Assembly: GCA_964016885.1 (NCBI GenBank) | Contig: OZ024742.1 | Location: 243,226,001-243,290,000 of the forward strand | Length of the DNA stretch: 64,000 nt | Source: Eledone cirrhosa | Taxonomy: Eukaryota | Direction: 5' to 3' | In this document: positions 3,185 through 32,893 of the stretch, piece after piece | Position numbering within the stretch: position 1 is the stretch's first letter | How the letters are laid out: each line of letters opens with the position of its first letter | Made by a program: the position numbers and the translations under genes | Notes under the pieces: generated by a model | Told to the model about the DNA's origin: nothing | What the model saw: only the letters and a program-made list of their open reading frames with translations | Database searches by the model: none

Positions 3185-4402
3185 TCATATGTCTGACTTT
3201 CTTTGAGGAATACCGAAATGGTATCCGTCTTCCCCACAAACAAAAAGCAGTGGATATGGTAGGCTGTCGTATGACCGATGCGTTTCACAAATCCTCTGCA
3301 GCGTATCGTCACGACTTTTAATGACAATGTCCCTTTTTTTATGCTGATCTTCATGGAGAACAACGGCTACTTCATTGCATGCGAGGGCGTTATAGCGGCG
3401 AGCATGCTCCCCAGATGGCCTTTTGTCAGCATCAATAACGATGTTGAAGTTAGGTACAGGTGTTGATTCCAAGACATATTTGAAGCTCTGGACGAAGCTG
3501 TTGTTTTCATGAAGCATGCGTTGAAGACCGAGTAGTATGTCTTTGTCAACAGATTTACTTTTCTCGCCGTTAGACTTAGGAATAATAGAAATACGCATGT
3601 CAGCCTGTCTAATGTAGTCAGTTATGAAGTAGATTTGGAGAAACGCGGACTTTTCCGTTTCTTGAGGCTGGAGTGATCCAATTAGATGGTATATCTGTCC
3701 CTGAACTTTAAATGTGGGCATCCACCCATCTTCTCGGACAACGCGTGCCCCGAAAGAGGTCATCTGAAAGGCACAATTGTACTTTCTGATGAGTTCAAGA
3801 AAATCTTTTGACCTAGGAGTTGTACCAGTAAGAAGTTCTTTCAAAGGCTGCGGTGGGTCCTCTAAGGGGAGTAAATTAACCTTGCCATTGGAGCAGCACA
3901 TTCCAGGTGGTTCTCCAGCCCACTTATTTGCACTACAGAACTTGCAAGTTAAACTCATATTCCCAATCTGGATGTCAGGCCGCATTGAGAGGTTAAGTGT
4001 TGGATCATAATTAAAAGCTTTTAAAATCCAATATGAATTGTTTGGACTTTTTATGCCCCGGGTAGTTTCTTTACGCCGATTGTTCTTTTCCAGTCTAATA
4101 CTGCGATCGTTGTGTGATTCTTTGGCTCTAGCAGCGACAGTAGCCACAGCATTACGGGAATTACGAAATGATTTTTGCTGTTCATTTTCGGTAGCTCTAG
4201 CAGCGGCAGTAGTCACAGCATTCCGGGAATTACGGATAGAACGGTCTAAATCAATAAGCTTAGCACGCGACGAAGTATAGTAAGATCTATTGCTGACTAG
4301 ACGCTCACTACGCTGGTCGCCGGTTTCAGCAACTCTTCTATTTGCTGAACGTAAAGCACTTTGTGACAATCGCAATTCAGTTTTCTCCTGCGACTCATTC
4401 AA
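3185..4402 (-). pseudogene. Helitron RepHel N-terminal part (zinc-finger region), truncated
   Basis: CKFCSANKWAGEPPGMCCSNGKV, IRKYNCAFQMTSFG, FKVQGQIYHLIGSL and HRSYDSLPYPLLF are characteristic Helitron motifs. Confidence 0.9.
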
Positions 4403-5387
4403 CCGTCTTCTTTTCTATTTAACTTCAGACACCGTTTTACGAGCAAGTGAGCATACTTTTTGGGGGGCATTATATCTGAAAATGTTAAACAAAAACCATA
4501 TGAAATTAGAAACTAAATGGTAAACACAATTGAATGGAAGATGAAATAGCAACGAAAAAAAAGTAAATGAAGATGCAATATTCAAACAAAATTGGGGGTA
4601 GGTATGACTAATTATCTACCAACTGGTAGTATTTGGATGGAAATACTTGACTTTATATGAAAAGAAAAAAAATATTAACTCACACTCACCTAATCAGTGT
4701 ATTCGGCAGAATTGCCAGAACTACAACACTATGGGTGTTGTCATATTAATATTTAACCAATGAAAGTCGTAAAAAATAAATAATTTAAACATTCCGATTC
4801 ATATGTCTGTAGCATTAATCTGTTATATGAAGTGTTATTTTGCGGGTTGTTATTTGCAATAAGCCGATTTAAAATACACCAGATAAGCCGTATGTCAATA
4901 CGGAACGCTCAATAGGGAATGCTCAATAAGGAACGCTCCACTGCAGTGTTGTCATATAGGGAGTGAAGAGCGACAGAGAGAGTAAAGCAGTTAAATTATA
5001 GAGAGGGGGAATGATCCTGATCGATTTTTGCCCTTATTGTTTATGGATTTGAAATTTCTTTGCTTCATGACCTTTTCCTGACCAAAACCAATAATTGTCC
5101 AGTCTTTGAATAGAATCCGTTGGAAATTGTGGACGTGAATCCATTACAAACCTTAACACACACATCCTCATATTTATGTATATAGATATATATATATAAT
5201 ATTATATTATTTATATTATATTATATATGTTCATACACGGAACAAAAGTGGTACCTAAGGTTTCAAGGCCCAATATTGATCATATCTTTAGATTGAACGA
5301 GGGATCAAATTTCAATATAAATTATATATATATATATATATATATACGATATTAATAAATGGAAACTATATTTATAAAACCATATTT

Positions 5388-6199: not shown

Positions 6200-8490
6200 T
6201 AATAACAGTACAAGAACTCCCCCTCCCCCCCCCCCCCACAGCCCATAAAGGTCGTCAAAACGTACTCAAACTATCATCTACACCTTTCACAACACACACA
6301 CATACACACCCACTCGAAACCCCATCATTTGCCGCTACTCTCTACGCTATAGAATATGTACGGATAGTGGCTGCAAATTCACCCATTTACCTAGGACAAC
6401 ACGGTCTATCCCCACAAACACCCACCACCATAATACATACTCCAATTTAACACCAACACAACCACCAATAACTGAAACAAGGAATCCACAAATCTGCCGC
6501 TTTTCCCAGCGAGACAGATTGTGTTTACACCGGGATTGTCCCTTTACCCTTCTCCCGAGGACTCCGAGGACAAATGAAAATAAAAATAAAAATAAAAGCA
6601 AAAACAAAAACCATAACCTACATAAAAATAACCACTACCACAGTCACCAACAGTCTCTTAAACAGGAAACTTCTTCCTCTTTTTTAGCCATAATGAATCT
6701 GGCAAAAGAACTGGAAAAAAACATTCGAGCTATCACCCAGCACCACCCTCCACTATCACCCCACTGCACAAACTCCCATTGCTGCTATTAACAAACAAAC
6801 AAATTAACAACACACCAAAACAATTAAAACCATCCACTCTCGCCTCAACATTTTTGCTTAACGCCCAAGGCATCAGCCCTTCCACCAATACTCAAAAATG
6901 GAAGATCAAATTCCTGGAGGACTGGGTTGATGTCCATCCAAACCACATCCCTTTCTTCGTCCTCACTGAAACCCATCTCAGTAACCTCCACTTGGAAGCC
7001 GAGGTGAAAATGAAAAATTTCAAAGCCATCCGTGCTGATCGCGCTGGCAGAAGAAAGGGTGGGACTGCCATTTATGTCCATAATTCTTTCTCAACAGAGG
7101 CTATGAACATATTTTCTAATGGATACTGCGAAGCAGTCACTGTATTCAGTCAAACCAACAACCTAATAGTAGTTGGGCTCTATAGGCCACCCCAAACGCC
7201 TCTACCATGTTTCAAGGAATGCCTCAACAGCATAAAGTGTTTCATCCAAGAATGTCACCCTGACAACATCTTAATGATGGGGGACTTCAACCTTCCCGGA
7301 GTTGACTGGTCCACAAACAGCCTGCCACCAGGTTCTTCTCCCTCAACCTCTGACAGGGAAGCAGTGGAATCGCTTCTTGACTTCATGGATGATTTCTTCC
7401 TGTCCCAACTGGTGCTCGAACCAACGAGGTGCCACAAAAACGTCCTAGACTTAATTTTCAGCAATCACACTGACACTATCCACAATATTGTAGTGGAGAA
7501 AACTCTACTCTCTGATCATGACATGGTTCCCTGTGATCTAAGATTCCACCGTCCAATATACAAACCCATTGTCATCTCTCCTGTCCATCCGTTTGACGCT
7601 ATGAATTTCCACAATGCAAACTGGGAAGCGATCAGTCATGATCTTGCACATGTCGACTGGTCCTTCACGCACACTCACACACCCACTAACATCAAAACGT
7701 CCTGGCAGACATTTGTGGACACTGTTACAAACATATGTGCAAAACACACCCCATTAAGAACTATAAACAAATCTAAGAGCAGAATCCCTAGAAATAGAAA
7801 AACGCTCATCAGGAAAATTAAGAGAACTAACAAAAAAAATCAACAAGCTGAAATACTGTCAGCAGCAACACATCAACTTGACTGCCATTTCATCACTAGA
7901 GACTAAAAAACATAACCTCCAAAACAATATGATGTCTATCATCAACAATCAGAGAAGAGCTGAAGAGGCCTGGACCATGGGGGAGATACTGCAGAAACAA
8001 TACTGCTCTGTTTTCAGCAATCCTGATATGGCCGATCTGGGCTGTATCGGCGATGTTACTCCCCATTACACCTTATCGGACATAACGTTTGGTGCCCCTG
8101 ATGTCTTAGCGGCAATAAAGGAAATCAAGCATAATTCAGCAGTAGGTCCCGATAGGTTCCCTGCTTGTGTCTTGAAGGCGTGTCAACACCAACTTGCATC
8201 TCCTCTTGCCAATCTGCGGCGGAACTCACTGGATGCTGGATATGTGCCAGAAAACCTTCTATCCCAGTCTGTTGTCCCAGTTTTCAAAAAAGGAAACATA
8301 TCCCTTGCCGTGAATTACCGTCCAATCTCACTCACCTCTCATATCATTAAGGTATTTGAGAGAGTGGTGAGATCGCGAATGACTCACTTCCTTGAGAGTA
8401 ACAATATGCTGAACTCCAACCAGCATGGATTCCGTAATGGAAGGGATTGCCTGACGCAGCAACTGCATCACTTTGATGACATTTTGCGAC
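6200..8490 (+). mobile_element. CR1/L2-group LINE fragment: ORF1 remnant, APE endonuclease and start of RT, frameshifted and truncated at (TA)n
   Basis: ORF 6779-7906 has LTETHL, RADR..R.GGGTAIYV, LYRPP, MGDFNLP, LDLIFSN and SDHDMV; ORF 7878-8490 has GPDRFP, VVPVFKKG, NYRPISLTSHIIKVFER and QHGFR. Confidence 0.92.
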
Positions 8491-8491
8491 C

Positions 8492-8526
<35 letters not shown>

Positions 8527-8874
8527 TATATATATATATATACATATACACACACACACATATATATAAGTATGTAAAAAACATAGATATAAAAACACAC
8601 ATACACACATACACACATGCACACTTACACGCATACATACAATATACAAATCAGCCGTATGAATAAATGAATACAAATTATACGCAAGTAAACATACATA
8701 AAAGCGGCTGAGGGACAACAGAATATATCTTGAGTTGAAAACGCAAGTGCCATGTGTTATGGGAGGGTCATGCTGCCAATAAAAACACACGCATCATTTG
8801 ATTTTCACTTCAATTTAAATTTATTATAAATTTCCGATTGGTTGGTTCGATAACTGGATGGTTGTTTAGATATT

Positions 8875-9735: not shown

Positions 9736-10244
9736 ATGAGAAAAATGGAAAACCAAGATCTTGGTTTTCCATTTCTGTTTAGTGGCATAGTCAATTATAT
9801 ACTAGTGATTTGATCAACAATAGTGTGTTGGTGATTACTATGTTGGTTCGTTACTTTTAAGCAGAATATCCATTGTGTAACATTCGGTGTTGAGGCAATA
9901 TTTCATTCCACTTAAGTGAAGCTATTTTTAAATATTATGCCTGTCCTTAACGCCAACAAAGTAAACATAGATACATAGATATGGCTTATGCAATACTTCT
10001 CTGATTTACGGGTTATATTGTTATAGCAACATCTGAGTTTTGTGTGGCTGTTTTGTTTTTGTTGTTGTTTTTTTTCTTTCTCATATATTAATTCCTTGTT
10101 TAGAGATTTAGAAGTGGCACAGTAATGTTTCCAATGATGTCATAATAATTGAGTGTTAATCAGATTGTAAGCAAAGATTTACAAAAAAAAACATCTTAAG
10201 AATCAAATAAATGACGACAATAGAAAGTATATATATATATATAG

Positions 10245-10548
10245 AAAAAATGATGAAATCGAAAATGCAACTGGAGTCTTATTTTAAAAAATATATATAT
10301 ATTTATCTGGTTCCTTTACCGGTTTTTCACATCTGATGTGAGAAAAACCACAGACCCTCCATCTCAACTCTACTTTTGAAAAGCAGAAGAACTGCGAAAC
10401 CGGTAAAGGAACCAAAATAAATATATATATTTTTTTTTTAAATAAGACTCCAGTTGCATTTTCGATTTCATCTTTATTTCTTTATACTTTCACTCGTGTA
10501 GGACACCTCGGTTATTTTTCATTTTGTAAAAAAAACCTCACTTTCTAA
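10245..10548. mobile_element. TA-flanked foldback repeat (family also at 14308-14520 and about 41935-42090)
   Basis: 10252-10325 is the reverse complement of about 10396-10472; homologous sequence elsewhere in the window. Confidence 0.8.
10373..10409 (+). ncRNA. Minimal hammerhead motif, U3:A8 core variant
   Basis: ctt-TTGAAAA-gcag aagaa ctgc-GAAA-ccgg-TA-aag. Confidence 0.65.
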
Positions 10549-10568
10549 TATATATATATATATATATA

Positions 10569-11059
10569 AAGGCCAGTTACAAAAAAGATAGATGCCATGA
10601 CAGGCCTTGACTATTGGGGTCGACTAGAAAAGCTCAACCTTTATTCTCTCCAACGTCACCGTGAGCGCTGCATTATCTGCATGATGTAGAAAATAGTCCA
10701 TCAGCATTGCCCAATGATGTTGTGCCCCGTGCTATCCACCCACCACAAAAATCACACTCGGATCTCATAACAGCAATACGGCACAATTAATTCACCTCAA
10801 TTGGCCCCGCTCTCTTTAACATTACACCAAAACACATTAAAACTGAAACAAACCCCATAAAGTTCAAATAGTCTTCAGACAAATTCCTTCAAGAAATCCT
10901 GGATAAACCTCCTACACCCGGATATGTCTCCGTAAACAATAACTCTCTACTTAAGTGGGCCATGGTGTCCAAATCCTGATGTAAAAGACTTCGCCAGATG
11001 GTACTATAAAGTTAGACATGGCCTGGGCCAATACTGGCCGAAACCTATCAAACCATTCA

Positions 11060-11062
<3 letters not shown>
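10569..11062 (+). mobile_element. CR1-type LINE 3' end fragment
   Basis: Translates to TKKIDAMTGLDYWGRLEKLNLYSLQRHRER, the CR1 ORF2 C-terminal motif, with stops; short repeat tail before (TA)n. Confidence 0.8.
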
Positions 11063-11145
<83 letters not shown>

Positions 11146-11202
11146 GTAAAATAAGAAAATTTAAAAAAAATTTAAAAAATTAACTTACTTACTAAAATTT
11201 TC

Positions 11203-11284
11203 ACTCCAACTAATTAGTTTCTGCAATGGGATATAGACAGTTACGTAATATAACTGTCGAGAATTCATTGCGTCATCAGGGAGT
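11203..11284 (-). ncRNA. Type I hammerhead ribozyme motif (monomer 1)
   Basis: Minus strand: actcc-CTGATGA-cgcaatg...cattgca-GAAA-ctaattag (palindrome)-TT-ggagt. Confidence 0.8.
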
Positions 11285-11742
11285 CTATTCTCAGCTAAGT
11301 CTCCAGGCAATGCGCGGACACTGGGGACTCATATAAAAATAATAATAATTCGGTAGATGGAACAGCTAGCGGGGACTGGATTGCATGCACTGAAAAGCTC
11401 GCTGTCTCTGGTCAAATGGCAGATTCTAAAGAATCAATCACGTGACGCTGAGGCTAGTCGGAAGGAGTGGGATGGTAAGATGACAGAAGCCTACTACCAC
11501 ACCAATAAATTAGTAGTGGTTTGGACAGGTTTGCTCAACAAATAAATAATTTGGAGATAAATATAGACAATTTAGTATATCTACTAACATATGCGTATAG
11601 ATGTACGCTAATGCTAGCAAATACATAAGTTATGTCATAGTACCTAGGTGGTTCAATGCAGGAGGATGCAGAACAATAATATAAAAGACGTAAAATAAGA
11701 AAATTTTTAAAAAATTAAAAAAATTAACTTACTAAAATTTTC

Positions 11743-11824
11743 ACTCCAACTAATTAGTTTCTGCAATGGGATATAGACAGTTACGTAATATAACTGTCGA
11801 GAATTCATTGCGTCATCAGGGAGT
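11743..11824 (-). ncRNA. Type I hammerhead ribozyme motif (monomer 2)
   Basis: Identical motif exactly 540 bp from the first. Confidence 0.8.
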
Positions 11825-12026
11825 CTATTCTCAGCTAAGTCTCCAGGCAATGCGCGGACACTGGGGACTCATATAAAAATAATAATAATTCGGTAGATGG
11901 AACAGCTAGCGGGGACTGGATTCCATGCACTGAAAAGCTCGCTGTCTCTGGTCAAATGGCAGATTCTAAAGAATCAATCACGTGACGCTGAGGCTAGAGA
12001 CTTAGCTGAGACTTAGCTGAGAATAG

Positions 12027-12108
12027 ACTCCCTGATGACGCAATGAATTCTCGACAGTTATATTACGTAACTGTCTATATCCCATTGCAGAAACTAATTA
12101 GTTGGAGT
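12027..12108 (+). ncRNA. Type I hammerhead ribozyme motif (inverted copy)
   Basis: actcc-CTGATGA-cgcaatg...cattgca-GAAA-ctaattag-TT-ggagt. Confidence 0.8.
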
Positions 12109-12306
12109 GAAAATTTTAGTAAGTAAGTTAATTTTTTTAATTTTTTTTTAATTTTCTTATTTTACGTCTTTTATATTATTGTTCTGCATCCTCCTGCATT
12201 GAACCACCTAGGTACTATGACATAACTTATGTATTTGCTAGCATTAGCGTACATCTGTACGCATATGTTAGTAGATATACTAAATTCTATATATATATAT
12301 ATATAT

Positions 12307-12900
12307 ATATGAAAAATGGCGTGCTGCGTGGTTGCACATGGGTTACATATGAATAAAATTAGTCCTTCATCAGTGATCTTCCAGCCTTCATTGGTATTTC
12401 TTCGCTTTAAAGATCATATACCTCTGGTTGGTGCGAGCAATAACTAAAGAAAGTTATTGGGACACGTAAAATAGGGTGAAGCGAGCGAGACATGTAAACA
12501 AACAAAGATGGTAATGCAACGGAAAGAGAAGAAACAAGTCCGTGATATCTGTGAACTTAAGTTCTGTGAAATCATAGACGAGGAGAGATACAGACCATCC
12601 GACCTGTGTGAGATGTGAGCGAGAAAAGGATTTCACACAGGTCAAACGGGAGGAAGTGAGAGAGGGGATGAAGCAGAGAGTGAGTGAGTGAAAGTGTGAG
12701 GAAGAGGCCAGCGGAGAGTGACTGGCAGAGGGGGTAAAAAACAGGTGAGAGATACAGAGAAAGGGGAAGCAGTAAGAAAGAAACAGACAGGTCGCAGCGG
12801 AAGAAAAAATATAAATATATGAAAAATGGCGTGTTGCGTGGTTGCATATGGGTTACATATGAATAAAATTAGAAGCGAGCGAGACATGTAAACAAACAAA
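12307..12900. repeat. TA-flanked repeat with a 510-bp-spaced terminal direct duplication; related copy at 58510-58670
   Basis: atgaaaaatggcgtg.tgcgtggttgca.atgggttacatatgaataaaattag at about 12309 and 12819. Confidence 0.75.
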
Positions 12901-12907
12901 GAGTATT

Positions 12908-13042
12908 AAGTATTTTACGAAAATATATGCCTAAGTTACCATATATTAAAATATATTACCCCAATATCAATGTATCGATGGCTCATTCGTTCGTAATTAC
13001 GAATTCATACTCAGGCAACGGAATCCCTGCTCTCTCCCTCTT

Positions 13043-13128
<86 letters not shown>

Positions 13129-13250
13129 AGGTTCCGTTGCCTGAGTATGAATTCGTAATTACGAACGAATTAGCCATCGATACATTGATATTAGGGTAAT
13201 ATATTTTAATATATGGTAACTTAGGCATATATTTTCGTAAAATACTTAAC
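12908..13250. repeat. About 340-bp palindrome centred on (CT)n(TA)n(GA)n
   Basis: 12908-13025 is the reverse complement of 13130-13250. Confidence 0.9.
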
Positions 13251-14077: not shown

Positions 14078-14251
14078 CGAAGGAAATGTGGTAAGGAACC
14101 AGGTGGACCATAACGCACCAAAGTACTCAATACTTGGGGTAGTAGAGTGGGTAATAGGAACCAGTAAGACCCCGACAGCTGAGCTCAAGTCGTTTCGACG
14201 GCTAATTCCCGTCGAAACGACTTGAGCTCAGCTGTCGGGGTCTTACTGGTT

Positions 14252-14255
<4 letters not shown>
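14077..14255. mobile_element. TA-flanked foldback repeat, family A (copies at 40699-41823, 45065-45120, 52691-52873, 57137-57230)
   Basis: Shared acgaaggaa..gtggtaaggaaccag.tggaccat.acgcacca.agtactc; terminal hairpin taggaacc...cgacgg/ccgtcg...ggttccta. Confidence 0.85.
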
Positions 14256-14314
<59 letters not shown>

Positions 14315-14447
14315 GTGAGGTTTTTTTTACAAAATGAAAAATAACCGAGGTGTCCTACACGAGTGAAAGTATAAAGAAAAAGAGATGAAATCGAAAATGC
14401 AACTGGAGTCTTATTTTTTTTTTAAATATATATATATTTATTTGGTT

Positions 14448-14485
14448 CCTTTACCGGTTTCGCAGTTCTTCTGCTTTTCAAAAGG
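14448..14485 (-). ncRNA. Minimal hammerhead motif, U3:A8 core variant
   Basis: Minus strand: cctt-TTGAAAA-gcag aagaa ctgc-GAAA-ccgg-TA-aagg; all stems perfectly paired. Confidence 0.72.
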
Positions 14486-14580
14486 TGAGTTGAGATGGAG
14501 GGTCTGTGGTTTTTCTCACATATATATATATATATCACAGAAAAAAAGAGAATCCGTGTTGCGACGAATGGAATTTATTG

Positions 14581-18934: not shown

Positions 18935-19395
18935 CAAAGCTAGCTTTGTTTAGAAACAGCTAGCGAATTTGAAAATTAGGCAGTAACATGTGCTTACGCC
19001 GTATTTGACTACACAGAATTAGTCTGTTAGTTGGGGTTTTAAAAAAAGCCTCTAAATGGAAAAAAGGTGAGTATTGACATACATGGGACACGAACCCACA
19101 TCTTTGGTTTGCCGGACCAATGTGTACCATTACACCAACACACCACCCATGCCTCCTTCCATTCAATTAGAAGCTATATAACCATAGCAGGTGTATATAT
19201 ATATATGTTCCATATGTTGGTGTAATGGTAACACATTGGTCCGACAAACCAAAGATGTGGGTTCGTGTCCCATATAAGTCAATACTCATCCTTTTTCCAT
19301 CCAGAGGTGTTTTTTTTTAATCCCAACTAACAGACTAATTAAATTTAGTCAAATACGGCGTAAGCACATGTTACTGCCTAATTTTTATTCTTATT
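18935..19395. mobile_element. Foldback element with tRNA-like head (related copy at 54010-54190)
   Basis: About 18975-19141 is the reverse complement of 19214-19385; tggtgtaatggt...gggttcgtgtccc resembles A/B boxes. Confidence 0.75.
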
Positions 19396-28818: not shown

Positions 28819-30298
28819 AAGGTAGATTGGCATAATCGGTAGAGCGTCTACATACAAGGTAGATTGGCATAATCGGTAGAGCGTCTACATACAAGGTAGA
28901 TTGGCATAATCGGTAGAGCGTCTACATACAAGGTAGATTGGCATAATCGGTAGAGCGCCTACATACAAGGTAGATTGGCATAATCGGTAGAGCATCTACA
29001 TACAAGGTAGATTGGCATAATCGGTAGAGCGTCTACATACAAGGTAGATTGGCATAATCGGTAGAGCGCCTACATACAAGGTAGATTGGCATAATCGGTA
29101 GAGCGTCTACATACAAGGTAGATTGGCATAATCGGTAGAGCGCCTACATACAAGGTAGATTGGCATAATCGGTAGAGCGTCTACATACAAGGTAGATTAG
29201 CATAATTGGTAGAGCGTTTACATACAAGGTAGATTGGCATAATCGGTAGAACGTCTACATACAAGGTAGATTGGCATAATCGGTAGAACGTCTACATACA
29301 AGGTAGATTGGCATAATCGGTAGAACGTCTACATACAAGGTAGATTGGCATAATCGGTAGAGCGCCTACATACAAGGTAGATTGGCATAATCGGTAGAGC
29401 GTCTACATACAAGGTAGATTAGCATAATTGGTAGAGCGTTTACATACAAGGTAGATTGGCATAATCGGTAGAGCGTCTACATACAAGGTAGATTGGCATA
29501 ATCGGTAGAGCGTCTACATACAAGGTAGATTGGCATAATCGGTAGAGCGTCTACATACAAGGTAGATTGGCATAATCGGTAGAGCGTCTACATACAAGGT
29601 AGATTGGCATAATCGGTAGAGCGTCTACATACAAGGTAGATTGGCATAATCGGTAGAGCATCTACATACAAGGTAGATTGGCATAATCGGTGAAGCGTCT
29701 ACATACAAGGTAGATTGGCATAATCGGTAGAGCGTCTACATACAAGGTAGATTGGCATAATCGGTAGAGTGTCTACATACAAGGTAGATTGGCATAATCG
29801 GTAGAGCGTCTATATACAAGGTAGATTGGCATAATCGGTAGAGCGTCTATATACAAGGTAGATTGGCATAATCGGTAGAGCGTCTACATACAAGGTAGAT
29901 TGGCATAATCGGTAGAGCGTCTACATACAAGGTAGATTGGCATAATCGGTAGAGCGTCTATATACAAGGTAGATTGGCATAATCGGTAGAGCGTCTATAT
30001 ACAAGGTAGATTGGCATAATCGGTAGAGCGTCTACATACAAGGTAGATTGGCATAATCGGTAGAGCGTCTACATACAAGGTAGATTGGCATAATCGGTAG
30101 AGCGTCTATATACAAGGTAGATTGGCATAATCGGTAGAGTGTCTATATACAAGGTAGATTGGCATAATCGGTAGAGCGTCTACATACAAGGTAGATTGGC
30201 ATAATCGGTAGAGCGTCTACATACAAGGTAGATTGGCATAATCGGTAGAGCGTCTATATACAAGGTAGATTGGCATAATTGGTAGAGCGTCTACCTAC
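28819..30298 (+). repeat. 37-bp minisatellite x40 derived from a SINE 5' head
   Basis: Unit aaggtagattggcataatcggtagagcgtctacatac; first unit at 28819, last at 30262; runs directly into a SINE body (30299-30470). Confidence 0.95.
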
Positions 30299-30706
30299 AT
30301 GCTTAGACGCATACAGTTACGGCCCTTTATGTTCTGAGTACAAATCCTGTTAACTTTGCCTTTCATTCTTACGGAGTCGATAAAATAAAGTACCTGTAAT
30401 GCACTGGGTTGATTTAATCGACTTTTCCCACCCCCAAAATTGCTGGCCTTGTGCCTAAATAAGAAATCATTATAAGCTGTAAGAAATTCTTATTAATTAC
30501 GTCGATCTTAGAGAGCCGTTGATTGGCTTTGTAGCATAGAGTTACGGCCCTTTATGATCTGAGTTCAAATCCTGCCGAGGTTAACTTTGCCTTTCATCCT
30601 TACGAGGTCGATAAAATAAAGTACCAGTCACGCACTGGATTCGATTTAATCGACTTTCACCTCCCCTAAAATTGTTGGCCCTTGTCCCTAAATAAGAAAC
30701 CATTAT
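30299..30706 (+). mobile_element. SINE body plus a following 5'-truncated SINE
   Basis: Family core and tail seen twice. Confidence 0.85.
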
Positions 30707-31016: not shown

Positions 31017-31527
31017 CGTTAGAGCTTTGGGGGAAATGCTTTACGGTATTTAGATACGTTACAACACCGTTTGCGTTCTGAACACAAATAAAGTACCAGT
31101 CAAGCACTAGTATCGATATAAGCACTTGTACGCCTTGTGCATACATTAGAAATCGATATTTTGTTGGACAAAACGCCTTATGGTATTTAGTTACATTCCT
31201 TAACGTTCAGAATTGAAATGTCATGCTTATCAAATTGTAGCTGGGAATTCTGGTTTTATGCAAAGTATTTCTCCACTAAGTTTACTAAATCCTTCTGTCC
31301 ACTACTAGATAGATCCATAGATGATACGTCCGTATATAAAACAACCACTTCTGCTGTTTTCTCTCCATAACTGACAACAAAATTCCCGCCAAACATTCCT
31401 TCACTATTCCACTGGAAACAACGTGGAACTGAAGGTGACTGTATATAGGCTCATTCTAAATATCAACAAATCAAATAAATATTTTCCAAATGTCTGTTAG
31501 AAATGAAGGGGCCTCGTACGTACACTA

Positions 31528-32893
31528 TAACTGGAAGATGAGACCAAATTTTCAAGTCTGGGATAACTGGAAGGTGAGACTAAATTTTCACGTCTGGGAT
31601 AACTGGAAGGTGAGACTAAATTTTCCCGTCTGGGATAACTGGAAGGTGAGACTAAATTTTCCCGTCTGGGATAACTGGAAGGTGAGACTAAATTTTCCCG
31701 TCTGGGATAACTGGAAGGTGAGACTAAATTTTCACGGCTTGGATAACTGGAAGGTGAGACTAAATTTTCACGTCTGGGATAACTGGAAGGTGAGACTAAA
31801 TTTTCACGTCTGGGATAACTGGAAGGTGAGACTAAATTTTCACGTCTGGGATAACTGGAAGGTGAGACTAAATTTTCACGTCTGGGATAACTGGAAGGTG
31901 AGACTAAATTTTCACGTCTGGGATAACTGGAAGGTGAGACTAAATTTTCACGTCTGGGATAACTGGAAGGTGAGACTAAATTTTCCCGTCTGGGATAACT
32001 GGAAGGTGAGACTAAATTTTCCCGTCTGGGATAACTGGAAGGTGAGACTAAATTTTCACGTCTGGGATAACTGGAAGGTGAGACTAAATTTTCACGTCTG
32101 GGATAACTGGAAGGTGAGACTAAATTTTCCCGTCTGGGATAACTGGAAGGTGAGACTAAATTTTCACGGCTTGGATAACTGGAAGGTGAGACTAAATTTT
32201 CACGTCTGGGATAACTGGAAGGTGAGACTAAATTTTCACGTCTGGGATAACTGGAAGGTGAGACTAAATTTTCACGTCTGGGATAACTGGAAGGTGAGAC
32301 TAAATTTTCACGTCTGGGATAACTGGAAGGTGAGACTAAATTTTCACGTCTGGGATAACTGGAAGGTGAGACTAAATTTTCACGTCTGGGATAACTGGAA
32401 GGTGAGACTAAATTTTCCCGTCTGGGATAACTGGAAGGTGAGACTAAATTTTCCCGTCTGGGATAACTGGAAGGTGAGACTAAATTTTCACGTCTGGGAT
32501 AACTGGAAGGTGAGACTAAATTTTCACGTCTGGGATAACTGGAAGGTGAGACTAAATTTTCCCGTCTGGGATAACTGGAAGGTGAGACTAAATTTTCCCG
32601 TCTGGGATAACTGGAAGGTGAGACTAAATTTTCACGTCTGGGATAACTGGAAGGTGAGACTAAATTTTCACGTCTGGGATAACTGGAAGGTGAGACTAAA
32701 TTTTCCCGTCTGGGATAACTGGAAGGTGAGACTAAATTTTCCCGTCTGGGATAACTGGAAGGTGAGACTAAATTTTCACGTCTGGGATAACTGGAAGGTG
32801 AGACTAAATTTTCACGTCTGGGATAACTGGAAGGTGAGACTAAATTTTCACGTCTGGGATAACTGGAAGGTGAGACTAAATTTTCACGTCTGG
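31528..32893. repeat. 36-bp minisatellite, about 38 copies
   Basis: Unit ggataactggaaggtgagactaaattttc(a/c)cgtctg. Confidence 0.97.

What the first reader, a model, noticed from the sequence alone, without database searches (positions are those of the whole stretch)
11140..12288. 540-nt HHR-delimited monomer in tandem plus an inverted tail: retrozyme or pLTR-like, candidate circRNA
Seen in sequence: two near-identical HHRs exactly 540 bp apart on the minus strand, with predicted cuts at 11748/11747 and 11208/11207. An inversion follows, with a short stutter (agacttagctg twice) at the junction and a third HHR on the plus strand. (TA)n flanks both sides. Inference: transcription would release a 540-nt unit able to circularise, and the two adjacent HHRs could pair through the CTAATTAG palindrome. 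Tandem plus inverted ends match Penelope-type integration.
Basis: partly seen in the sequence, partly recalled or inferred. Interest (0 to 1): 0.72.

Follow-up and report, generated by a model that had tools for sequence, protein, structure and literature searches.

The report
Hammerhead retrozyme with Penelope two-site footprint
This is one young copy of a 540-base, protein-free jumping repeat with a predicted self-cutting RNA motif and thousands of copies in TA microsatellites; its back-to-back arms end one at each of two fixed sites, which likely records how a Penelope-type retrotransposon enzyme copies it, while its cutting and its circular RNA are untested.

Summary
Observation confirmed: three identical type I hammerhead (HHR) cores, two of them 540 nt apart on the minus strand and one on the plus strand, an 11-nt junction stutter and TA flanks. 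It is one young insertion of a non-coding family with at least about 9,400 HHR copies, i.e. a metazoan non-LTR retrozyme (known kind). Stem II covaries; the C·A pair at its base and the GUU triplet are atypical.

The insertion footprint is Penelope-type. 3' ends fall at two fixed sites about 114 nt apart, and 42 of 46 back-to-back insertions have one arm at each site, none with two alike. A co-resident Neptune family and a second retrozyme show nearly the same rule. Site B carries (CT)n expansions up to 30 units. 5' ends pile up just after the predicted cut (29 of 116), but one exact-junction test showed no enrichment.

No parent element, RNA evidence or cleavage assay was obtained. This locus is more likely a product than a circRNA source: read-through RNA is predicted to bury the second HHR in a hairpin. 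The scan has noted similar retrozymes before, in this and other genomes.

The parts
11063..11139 (.). Left (TA)n tract: the target. It is also the 3' tail of a LINE-like remnant at about 10560-11062.
   Evidence: 38.5 copies. The LINE-like reading rests on a C-terminal motif recalled from memory and seen in the translation; the same flank recurs in L058.
11135..11997 (-). Minus arm, 1.6 units: unit positions 291-540, 1-540 and 1-69 overlapping as a partial tandem. Its 3' end is at fixed site A (unit position about 69), joined to TA by ATAT microhomology.
11203..11284 (-). HHR copy 1 (type I): stem I 5 bp, CUGAUGA, 50-nt stem II, GAAA, palindromic stem III, GUU; predicted cut 11208/11207.
11208..11747 (-). 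Cut-to-cut monomer, 540 nt, 36.7% GC, no long ORF.
   Evidence: circular fold -126.8 kcal/mol, z -5.95 against 40 shuffles; longest ATG ORF 62 aa
11574..11623 (-). Long hairpin between priming sites A and B; candidate binding element for the reverse transcriptase (inferred).
11743..11824 (-). HHR copy 2; predicted cut 11748/11747.
11997..12022 (.). Head-to-head junction with an 11-nt templated duplication of the plus arm's start.
12008..12288 (+). Plus arm: unit positions 445-540 then 1-183 plus CT. Its 3' end is at fixed site B (the 'tail' end).
12027..12108 (+). HHR copy 3; predicted cut 12103/12104.
12288..12310 (.). Right (TA)n tract.

Best explanation
This is a young copy of a high-copy, non-coding hammerhead repeat (a non-LTR retrozyme) whose two back-to-back arms were likely each copied from the repeat's RNA by a Neptune-type Penelope enzyme, one from each strand of a cut TA microsatellite and each from a different fixed internal start site. 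Shown directly: the unit, the HHR motif with a covarying stem II, the copy number, TA flanks, two fixed 3' ends and the one-arm-per-site rule. Inferred steps: (1) multimeric transcripts self-cleave, probably helped by HHR pairing through the 12-nt stem III palindrome; (2) monomers are probably circularised, as shown for other animal retrozymes; (3) a Neptune RT/GIY-YIG protein, probably a dimer, nicks both strands of (TA)n; each 3'-OH anneals to an internal AUAU at site A (about 69 nt after the cut) or site B (about 190 nt after it), and at B the enzyme often stutters on the adjacent CUCU; (4) copying runs through HHR junctions without a scar, giving more than one unit, and stops at structure or at a cleaved 5' end; (5) the two cDNA ends are joined by microhomology with small templated insertions such as the 11-nt stutter. 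This locus is more likely an end product than a circRNA source.
For: Family size and youth: 1962 candidates, 39 scored, full-unit matches 92-100%; at least 9,366 cut-spanning motifs; window arms differ at 2 of 578 compared positions. RNA selection: 94.4% of cells paired, 7 pairs with two-sided changes, 0 of 500 shuffles as high on cells paired. Two fixed ends: 42 mixed, 0 alike, 4 other among 46 head-to-head insertions, curated by hand. Same rule in co-resident Neptune family A ends (14 mixed, 1 alike, 1 other) and a second 459-nt retrozyme (10 mixed, 1 alike), both read. Neptune ORFs with RT, GIY-YIG and a CxxxxCxxC linker end in (AT)n and are 97.8-98.7% identical to each other. A purified Penelope RT starts at two internal sites that define the tail, extends both strands and is modelled as a dimer (PMC11167929). 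Internal starts suit a template without a 3' end. Units inside one insertion share alleles: 62 concordant against 10 discordant cases at common variants, plus 22 shared private variants. 97 of 101 cut junctions have no indel. 5' ends at the cut to +21: 13 of 36 in the sample chosen without regard to 5' ends, against 2 in the 22 nt upstream and 2 downstream. Inversion junctions on the 8-nt palindrome just 3' of the cut occur at 84 loci, against 7 on the longer palindrome just 5' of it.
Against: No RNA or cleavage data. The HHR is atypical: C·A at the base of stem II (72 of 75), GUU triplet (79 of 81), stem III probability about 0.1. 8 of 9 Xenopus dimers tested in the 2026 preprint did not cleave. 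TA directly abutting the cut occurs 3 times against 2 for a control position, so no enrichment. Sample C (2 of 31, biased to intact cuts) and the second family show no pile-up at the cut. 5' ends also cluster near the stem II edge and apex. About 30 Neptune A arms start 211-218 nt before their end, away from their putative HHR, so pile-ups can have other causes. No autonomous element sharing sequence with the unit was found in 40 of 150 listed GIY-YIG loci. In PMC11167929 priming was not homologous to the target and HHR cleavage was dispensable; here both sites have AUAU microhomology. 10 discordant variants show that some templates were heterogeneous or switched.
Confidence: 0.72

Rival explanations
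1. Same element and same Penelope machinery, but the template is linear uncleaved multimer RNA from tandem loci. The HHR is weak or dispensable, no circle is needed, and the 5' pile-up reflects the enzyme stalling at the folded HHR.
For: Uncleaved RNA was the dominant substrate in vitro in PMC11167929. The HHR is atypical. The exact-cut test was negative. A 70-unit array exists as a possible multimer source. Fixed start sites do not by themselves prove a circle.
Against: Neighbouring units in the array differ by about 5%, whereas dispersed multi-unit insertions are homogeneous: L082 with 7 units 1.46%, L027 0.29%. 5' truncation would shorten copies each round unless length is regenerated. The core and cut site stay conserved across subfamilies at 74-100% identity. 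7 of 116 5' ends sit exactly at the cut.
Confidence: 0.2
2. The unit is the detached terminal repeat (pLTR) of a still unidentified autonomous Penelope element rather than an independent retrozyme lineage.
For: The order HHR, site A, site B has Penelope-like spacing, also seen in Neptune families A-D here. Xenopus retrozymes are related to pLTRs (2026 preprint).
Against: Units follow each other head to tail with no ORF between them. Penelope coding hits near only 3 insertions in 115 loci lie about 500-830 nt beyond the element's TA-joined end. No similarity to five Neptune 3' regions. Distant descent from a pLTR remains likely and is compatible with the best explanation.
Confidence: 0.06
3. 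A DNA-level tandem or satellite repeat spread by recombination or repair, with an incidental ribozyme-like motif.
For: One 37.4-kb array of 70 units with a partial 3-unit higher-order period shows DNA-level expansion.
Against: Fixed 3' ends with variable 5' ends, head-to-head arms, TA targets and stem II covariation. The array itself is bounded by site B at one end and by an inversion plus site A at the other.
Confidence: 0.02

Closest known systems
Metazoan non-LTR retrozymes (Cervera & de la Pena 2020, PMC7229834; Li, Clavereau & Pollet 2026, 10.64898/2026.07.22.740005)
   Same: Tandem non-coding units with a type I HHR, a short palindromic stem III, GC below 50%, thousands of copies, and co-resident Penelope elements.
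   Different: 540 nt is above the 150-450 bp of the 2020 paper but inside the 51-972 bp of the 2026 preprint. Stem II is 50 nt, with a C·A pair at its base and a GUU triplet. In the parts I read, neither paper describes TA targeting, two fixed 3' ends, one-arm-per-site inversions or (CT)n stutter. Expression and cleavage are shown there for some elements and not here.
Penelope-like elements, Neptune and Poseidon clades (Craig et al. 2021, PMC8557442; Arkhipova et al. 2013, PMC3846280; Frangieh et al. 2024, PMC11167929)
   Same: Partial tandem plus 5'-adjacent inverted copy, a tail on one end only, palindromic or microhomology junctions, microsatellite targets, and two internal RT start sites downstream of the HHR.
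   Different: No ORF. The tail is about 114-120 nt rather than 30-40. Both start sites carry AUAU matching the target, whereas the Anolis Poseidon started without homology.
Penelope-associated HHR variants (Cervera & de la Pena 2014, PMC4209133) and pseudoknotted HHRs (Perreault et al. 2011, PMC3088659)
   Same: Short helix I, long helix II, an extra nucleotide after A9, and a palindromic stem III suited to dimers; a possible stem I-stem II pseudoknot.
   Different: A further A before G12, so the first opposition is C·A and G-C comes second. The pseudoknot is invariant here (5 of 6 pairs never vary) and therefore unproven.

Membership tests
Metazoan non-LTR retrozyme | Type I HHR with conserved core in each unit | tested here: met
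   (CTGATGA in 65 of 75 parsed). Atypical C·A at the base of stem II.
Metazoan non-LTR retrozyme | [quoted passage not shown] | tested here: met
   Two HHRs 540 nt apart here; 7 units in L082; 70 in one array.
Metazoan non-LTR retrozyme | Non-coding, GC below 50%, unit of a few hundred nt | tested here: met
   36.7% GC; longest ATG ORF 62 aa; size within 51-972 bp.
Metazoan non-LTR retrozyme | Co-existing autonomous Penelope elements | tested here: met
   10,596 GIY-YIG candidates, 150 scored; RT plus GIY-YIG ORFs.
Metazoan non-LTR retrozyme | Target-site duplication longer than 4 bp when present | tested here: inconclusive
   Flanks are (TA)n; no duplication was visible by eye in 7 loci with non-TA or partly TA 5' flanks.
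Metazoan non-LTR retrozyme | Self-cleavage | not testable with these tools
   Only indirect genomic signs, and they are mixed.
Metazoan non-LTR retrozyme | Expressed as linear and circular monomer RNA | not testable with these tools
   No RNA data were obtained.
Autonomous Penelope-like element (pLTR of) | RT plus GIY-YIG ORF between the repeats | tested here: not met
Autonomous Penelope-like element (pLTR of) | Sequence shared with a pLTR of an autonomous family | tested here: inconclusive
   None in 40 of 150 listed GIY-YIG loci; the two matches are neighbouring insertions. The genome was not screened exhaustively.
Penelope-type integration | Partial tandem, inverted 5' copy, tail on one end, microsatellite target | tested here: met
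Plant LTR retrozyme | Type III HHR in LTRs with PBS and PPT | tested here: not met
   The HHR is type I and the units are tandem; PBS and PPT were not searched.

The most novel reading that the evidence does not exclude
A Penelope RT dimer loads asymmetrically on a small ribozyme RNA circle. One subunit always starts at site A and the other at site B, each primed by one strand of a cut TA tract. They roll round the circle and stutter telomerase-style on CUCU at initiation, so the element writes (AT)n(AG)n compound microsatellites into the genome. The insertion ends are then an in vivo record of both HHR cleavage and circle-templated retrotransposition.
Probability: 0.3. Interest if true: 0.72.

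Novelty: new member of a known kind. Interest (0 to 1): 0.45.

Why it matters
How animal retrozymes move is open. The 2020 paper proposed Penelope elements as helpers, and the 2026 preprint supports this by phylogeny while calling for mechanism. This family supplies a young, abundant footprint that ties retrozymes to the two-start-site chemistry shown in vitro for one Penelope protein. It adds a sharp, testable rule (one arm per site) and a stutter signature. A 540-nt RNA, a young Neptune ORF from the same genome and a TA target make a compact in vitro system for asking whether a circle is the template. The element itself is a known kind, and the scan has met similar ones repeatedly.

Tried and rejected
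Rfam gathering scan: no HHR family hit. Run search: no RNA holder listed, which is no evidence either way; no read-level data were obtained. Search for an autonomous parent: BLAST of the element against 40 GIY-YIG loci gave two matches, L058 and L048, both neighbouring insertions across TA tracts; tblastn of 6 Penelope ORFs against 115 retrozyme loci and blastn against five Neptune 3' regions and the second retrozyme found no continuity or similarity. My early idea that site B loses a GT and gains non-templated CT was wrong: most internal copies read CTCT (53 of 70) and the window's GTCT is a variant, so (CT)n is an expansion of templated CUCU. The idea that (CT)n belongs to the target was rejected because opposite flanks are mostly (TA)n. 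The exact TA-to-cut junction count showed no enrichment. The 70-unit array as one rolling-circle product was rejected: neighbouring units differ by about 5%, with a partial lag-3 period. The constrained energies were mis-indexed and are replaced; its pair probabilities are unaffected. One search timed out and was redone. The look-up of earlier findings by sequence returned nothing. Literature search was uninformative.

Full report
Observation. Three HHR copies with identical cores lie at 11279(-), 11819(-) and 12032(+); the minus-strand pair is 540 nt apart. Numbering the unit from the first base after the predicted cut (u1 = 11747), the minus arm runs from u291 through one whole unit to u69 and merges with (TA)n at 11135. 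The plus arm runs from u445 through the cut to u183, then CT and (TA)n. The arms are head to head, joined by an 11-nt duplication. There is no other copy in the window and no ATG ORF over 62 aa. Rfam misses the motif.

The ribozyme. It is type I: stem I 5 bp, CUGAUGA, a 50-nt stem II (6 bp, a 7x7 internal loop, 8 bp), GAAA, a short stem III inside a 12-nt palindrome, and GUU. Among 81 distinct HHR sequences the triplet is GTT in 79; of 75 parsed, the core is CTGATGA in 65 and the base of stem II is C·A in 72. On 18 diverse copies (one of 19 was dropped for a deletion; two rows are misaligned by a column) 94.4% of cells pair and 7 pairs change on both sides, all in stem II. No shuffle of 500 reached the paired fraction, and slid controls gave 35-44%. 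Stems I and III hardly vary. An invariant GAGAA/UUCUC match could be a stem I-stem II pseudoknot but shows no covariation. Locally, stems I and II have probability at least 0.95 and stem III about 0.1. The double hammerhead costs 4.0-5.6 kcal/mol over the free fold and two single HHRs cost 6.3-8.5, so pairing of neighbours is plausible and not shown. The circular monomer folds at z -5.95.

The family. The own genome (3.0 Gb, host not identified) gave 1962 candidates with 39 scored. A 20-mer across the cut occurs 5000+4366 times, control 0. Subfamilies range from 74 to 100% identity, with HHR spacings of about 520-570 nt. The window insertion is very young: 2 differences in 578 positions between its own copies, against a mean 2.9% to other young loci. 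Most copies hold 0.3-2.5 units, one holds 7, and one 37.4-kb array holds 70 units with a partial 3-unit period.

The footprint. 3' ends fall at two fixed sites: A at about u69 and B at u183-191, each ending on an internal ATAT that merges with (AT)n. Of 46 head-to-head insertions curated by hand have one A arm and one B arm, none has two alike and 4 have another end. Left out of this count: duplicate views of a locus, complex L137 and the three control loci L158-L160; six of the 46 were picked through a junction pattern. In 30 loci of a Neptune family A 3' end, 14 pairs are mixed, 1 alike and 1 other; in 30 loci (27 distinct) of a second, 459-nt HHR repeat, 10 are mixed and 1 alike (read by hand). 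At site B the internal CTCT (53 of 70 internal copies, none expanded) appears as 0-30 CT units; 35 of 59 terminal rows have 3 or more (12 of 71 rows were internal or false and were set aside). I read this as slippage at initiation. Similar 3' repeat slippage in LINEs is recalled, not from a call.

Helper. GIY-YIG candidates number 10,596 with 150 scored. Long ORFs carry RT plus C-terminal GIY-YIG and a CxxxxCxxC linker, which matches the Neptune linker described in PMC8557442 (passages). Family A ORFs are 97.8-98.7% identical and end in (AT)n. No parent sharing sequence with the unit was found, so the helper family is inferred, not identified.

Template. Units within an insertion share alleles (62 concordant, 10 discordant, 22 shared private variants) and cross the cut without indel in 97 of 101 cases. 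This fits a circle or a homogeneous multimer; the heterogeneous array is a poor source. 5' ends from the cut to +21 number 29 of 116 overall, against 8 upstream and 7 downstream in equal windows. Sample A (20 of 61) is biased towards such ends; sample B, chosen on u70-183 only, gives 13 of 36 against 2 and 2; sample C, which required an intact cut, gives 2 of 31. Mirror junctions on the palindrome just after the cut occur at 84 loci, against 7 on the longer one just before it. Against this: TA abutting the cut exactly is 3 against 2 for a control; ends also gather at stem II; the second family shows no such peak; and Neptune A arms pile up away from their putative HHR. I put cleavage as the cause of the peak at about 60%, with stalling at the folded HHR as the rival.

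This locus as a source. Folding the whole insertion on the minus strand pairs the inverted arm with HHR 2 and abolishes its stems. A monomer could come only from a start inside the minus arm upstream of HHR 2. No RNA evidence was obtained.

Comparison with what is known. PMC7229834 (parts 2-4 of 6 read) defines animal non-LTR retrozymes, shows circles in coral, mussel and axolotl, and proposes Penelope helpers. The 2026 preprint (parts 1-3 of 5; its supplements are closed) gives units of 51-972 bp, links them to pLTRs and found 1 of 9 dimers cleaving. PMC11167929 (parts 1-2 of 4 and passages) shows two internal start sites that define the tail, extension of both strands and a modelled dimer; the words circular, retrozyme and slippage do not occur in its main text. 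PMC3846280, PMC8557442, PMC4209133, PMC3088659 and PMC13282606 were seen as passages. Searches listed no paper that appears from its title or abstract to describe this family, the one-arm-per-site rule or CT stutter for Penelope elements. The library lacks most subscription papers, and supplements and Repbase or Dfam entries were not seen. That the host is a cephalopod is recalled from the repeat landscape and suggested by earlier notes; I did not test it.

Verdict. New member of a known kind, with a clean mechanistic footprint. The scan's earlier notes report similar two-armed retrozymes of other unit lengths in this and at least two other genomes. They were read after my analysis and are not independent support. 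Interest 0.45.

Noticed in passing
window 10225-10548 and 14288-14521: 3' ends of the young Neptune family A. 10225-10548 is itself a two-armed remnant with one short-end arm and one long-end arm. The family has a putative minimal HHR variant (UUGAAAA core, CCGG palindrome) about 150 nt before its end, and short copies start sharply at 211-218 nt before the end, cause unexplained.
   Followed up: partly
L052:6503-7424 (G000:C5:100.72 Mb): Second TA-inserted HHR repeat: 459-nt unit, 50-nt stem II with U·U at its base, GUA triplet, 1700 candidates, two fixed ends 109 nt apart. Several copies are close to exactly one or two units long.
   Followed up: partly
G000:C3:88369681-88407125 (L153-L157): 70-unit, 37.4-kb array of this retrozyme, bounded by site B and by an inversion plus site A, with a partial 3-unit higher-order period; 60 of 66 units examined keep the CTGATGA core.
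   Followed up: partly
L061, L056, L060, L063, L068: Further HHR-like motifs of other families near Penelope loci, some with 26-50-nt stem II, tandem (511 nt spacing in L061) or inverted.
   Followed up: no
window 12906-13249: 172-nt arms in tail-to-tail inversion around (CT)n(TA)n(GA)n: another element ending in CT/TA repeats on both sides of one TA tract.
   Followed up: no
window 14160-14253: Near-perfect hairpin element of about 95 nt before a TA tract; similar small hairpins flank L004 and L089. MITE-like, by inference.
   Followed up: no
window 6662-8666 (+): Broken LINE with APE endonuclease and RT matches.
   Followed up: no
window 3185-4414 (-): 408-aa open frame resembling the N-terminal part of a Helitron Rep-helicase (recalled resemblance; Pfam gave only a weak STPR match).
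   Followed up: no
window 19075-19144 (-) and 19211-19281 (+): Two tRNA-like sequences in divergent orientation (Rfam RF00005), possibly tRNA-derived repeats.
   Followed up: no
window 28819-30299 and 31527-32893: Homogeneous minisatellites: 37 nt x 40 and 36 nt x 38. The first resembles the start of the adjacent SINE-like 229-nt repeat.
   Followed up: no
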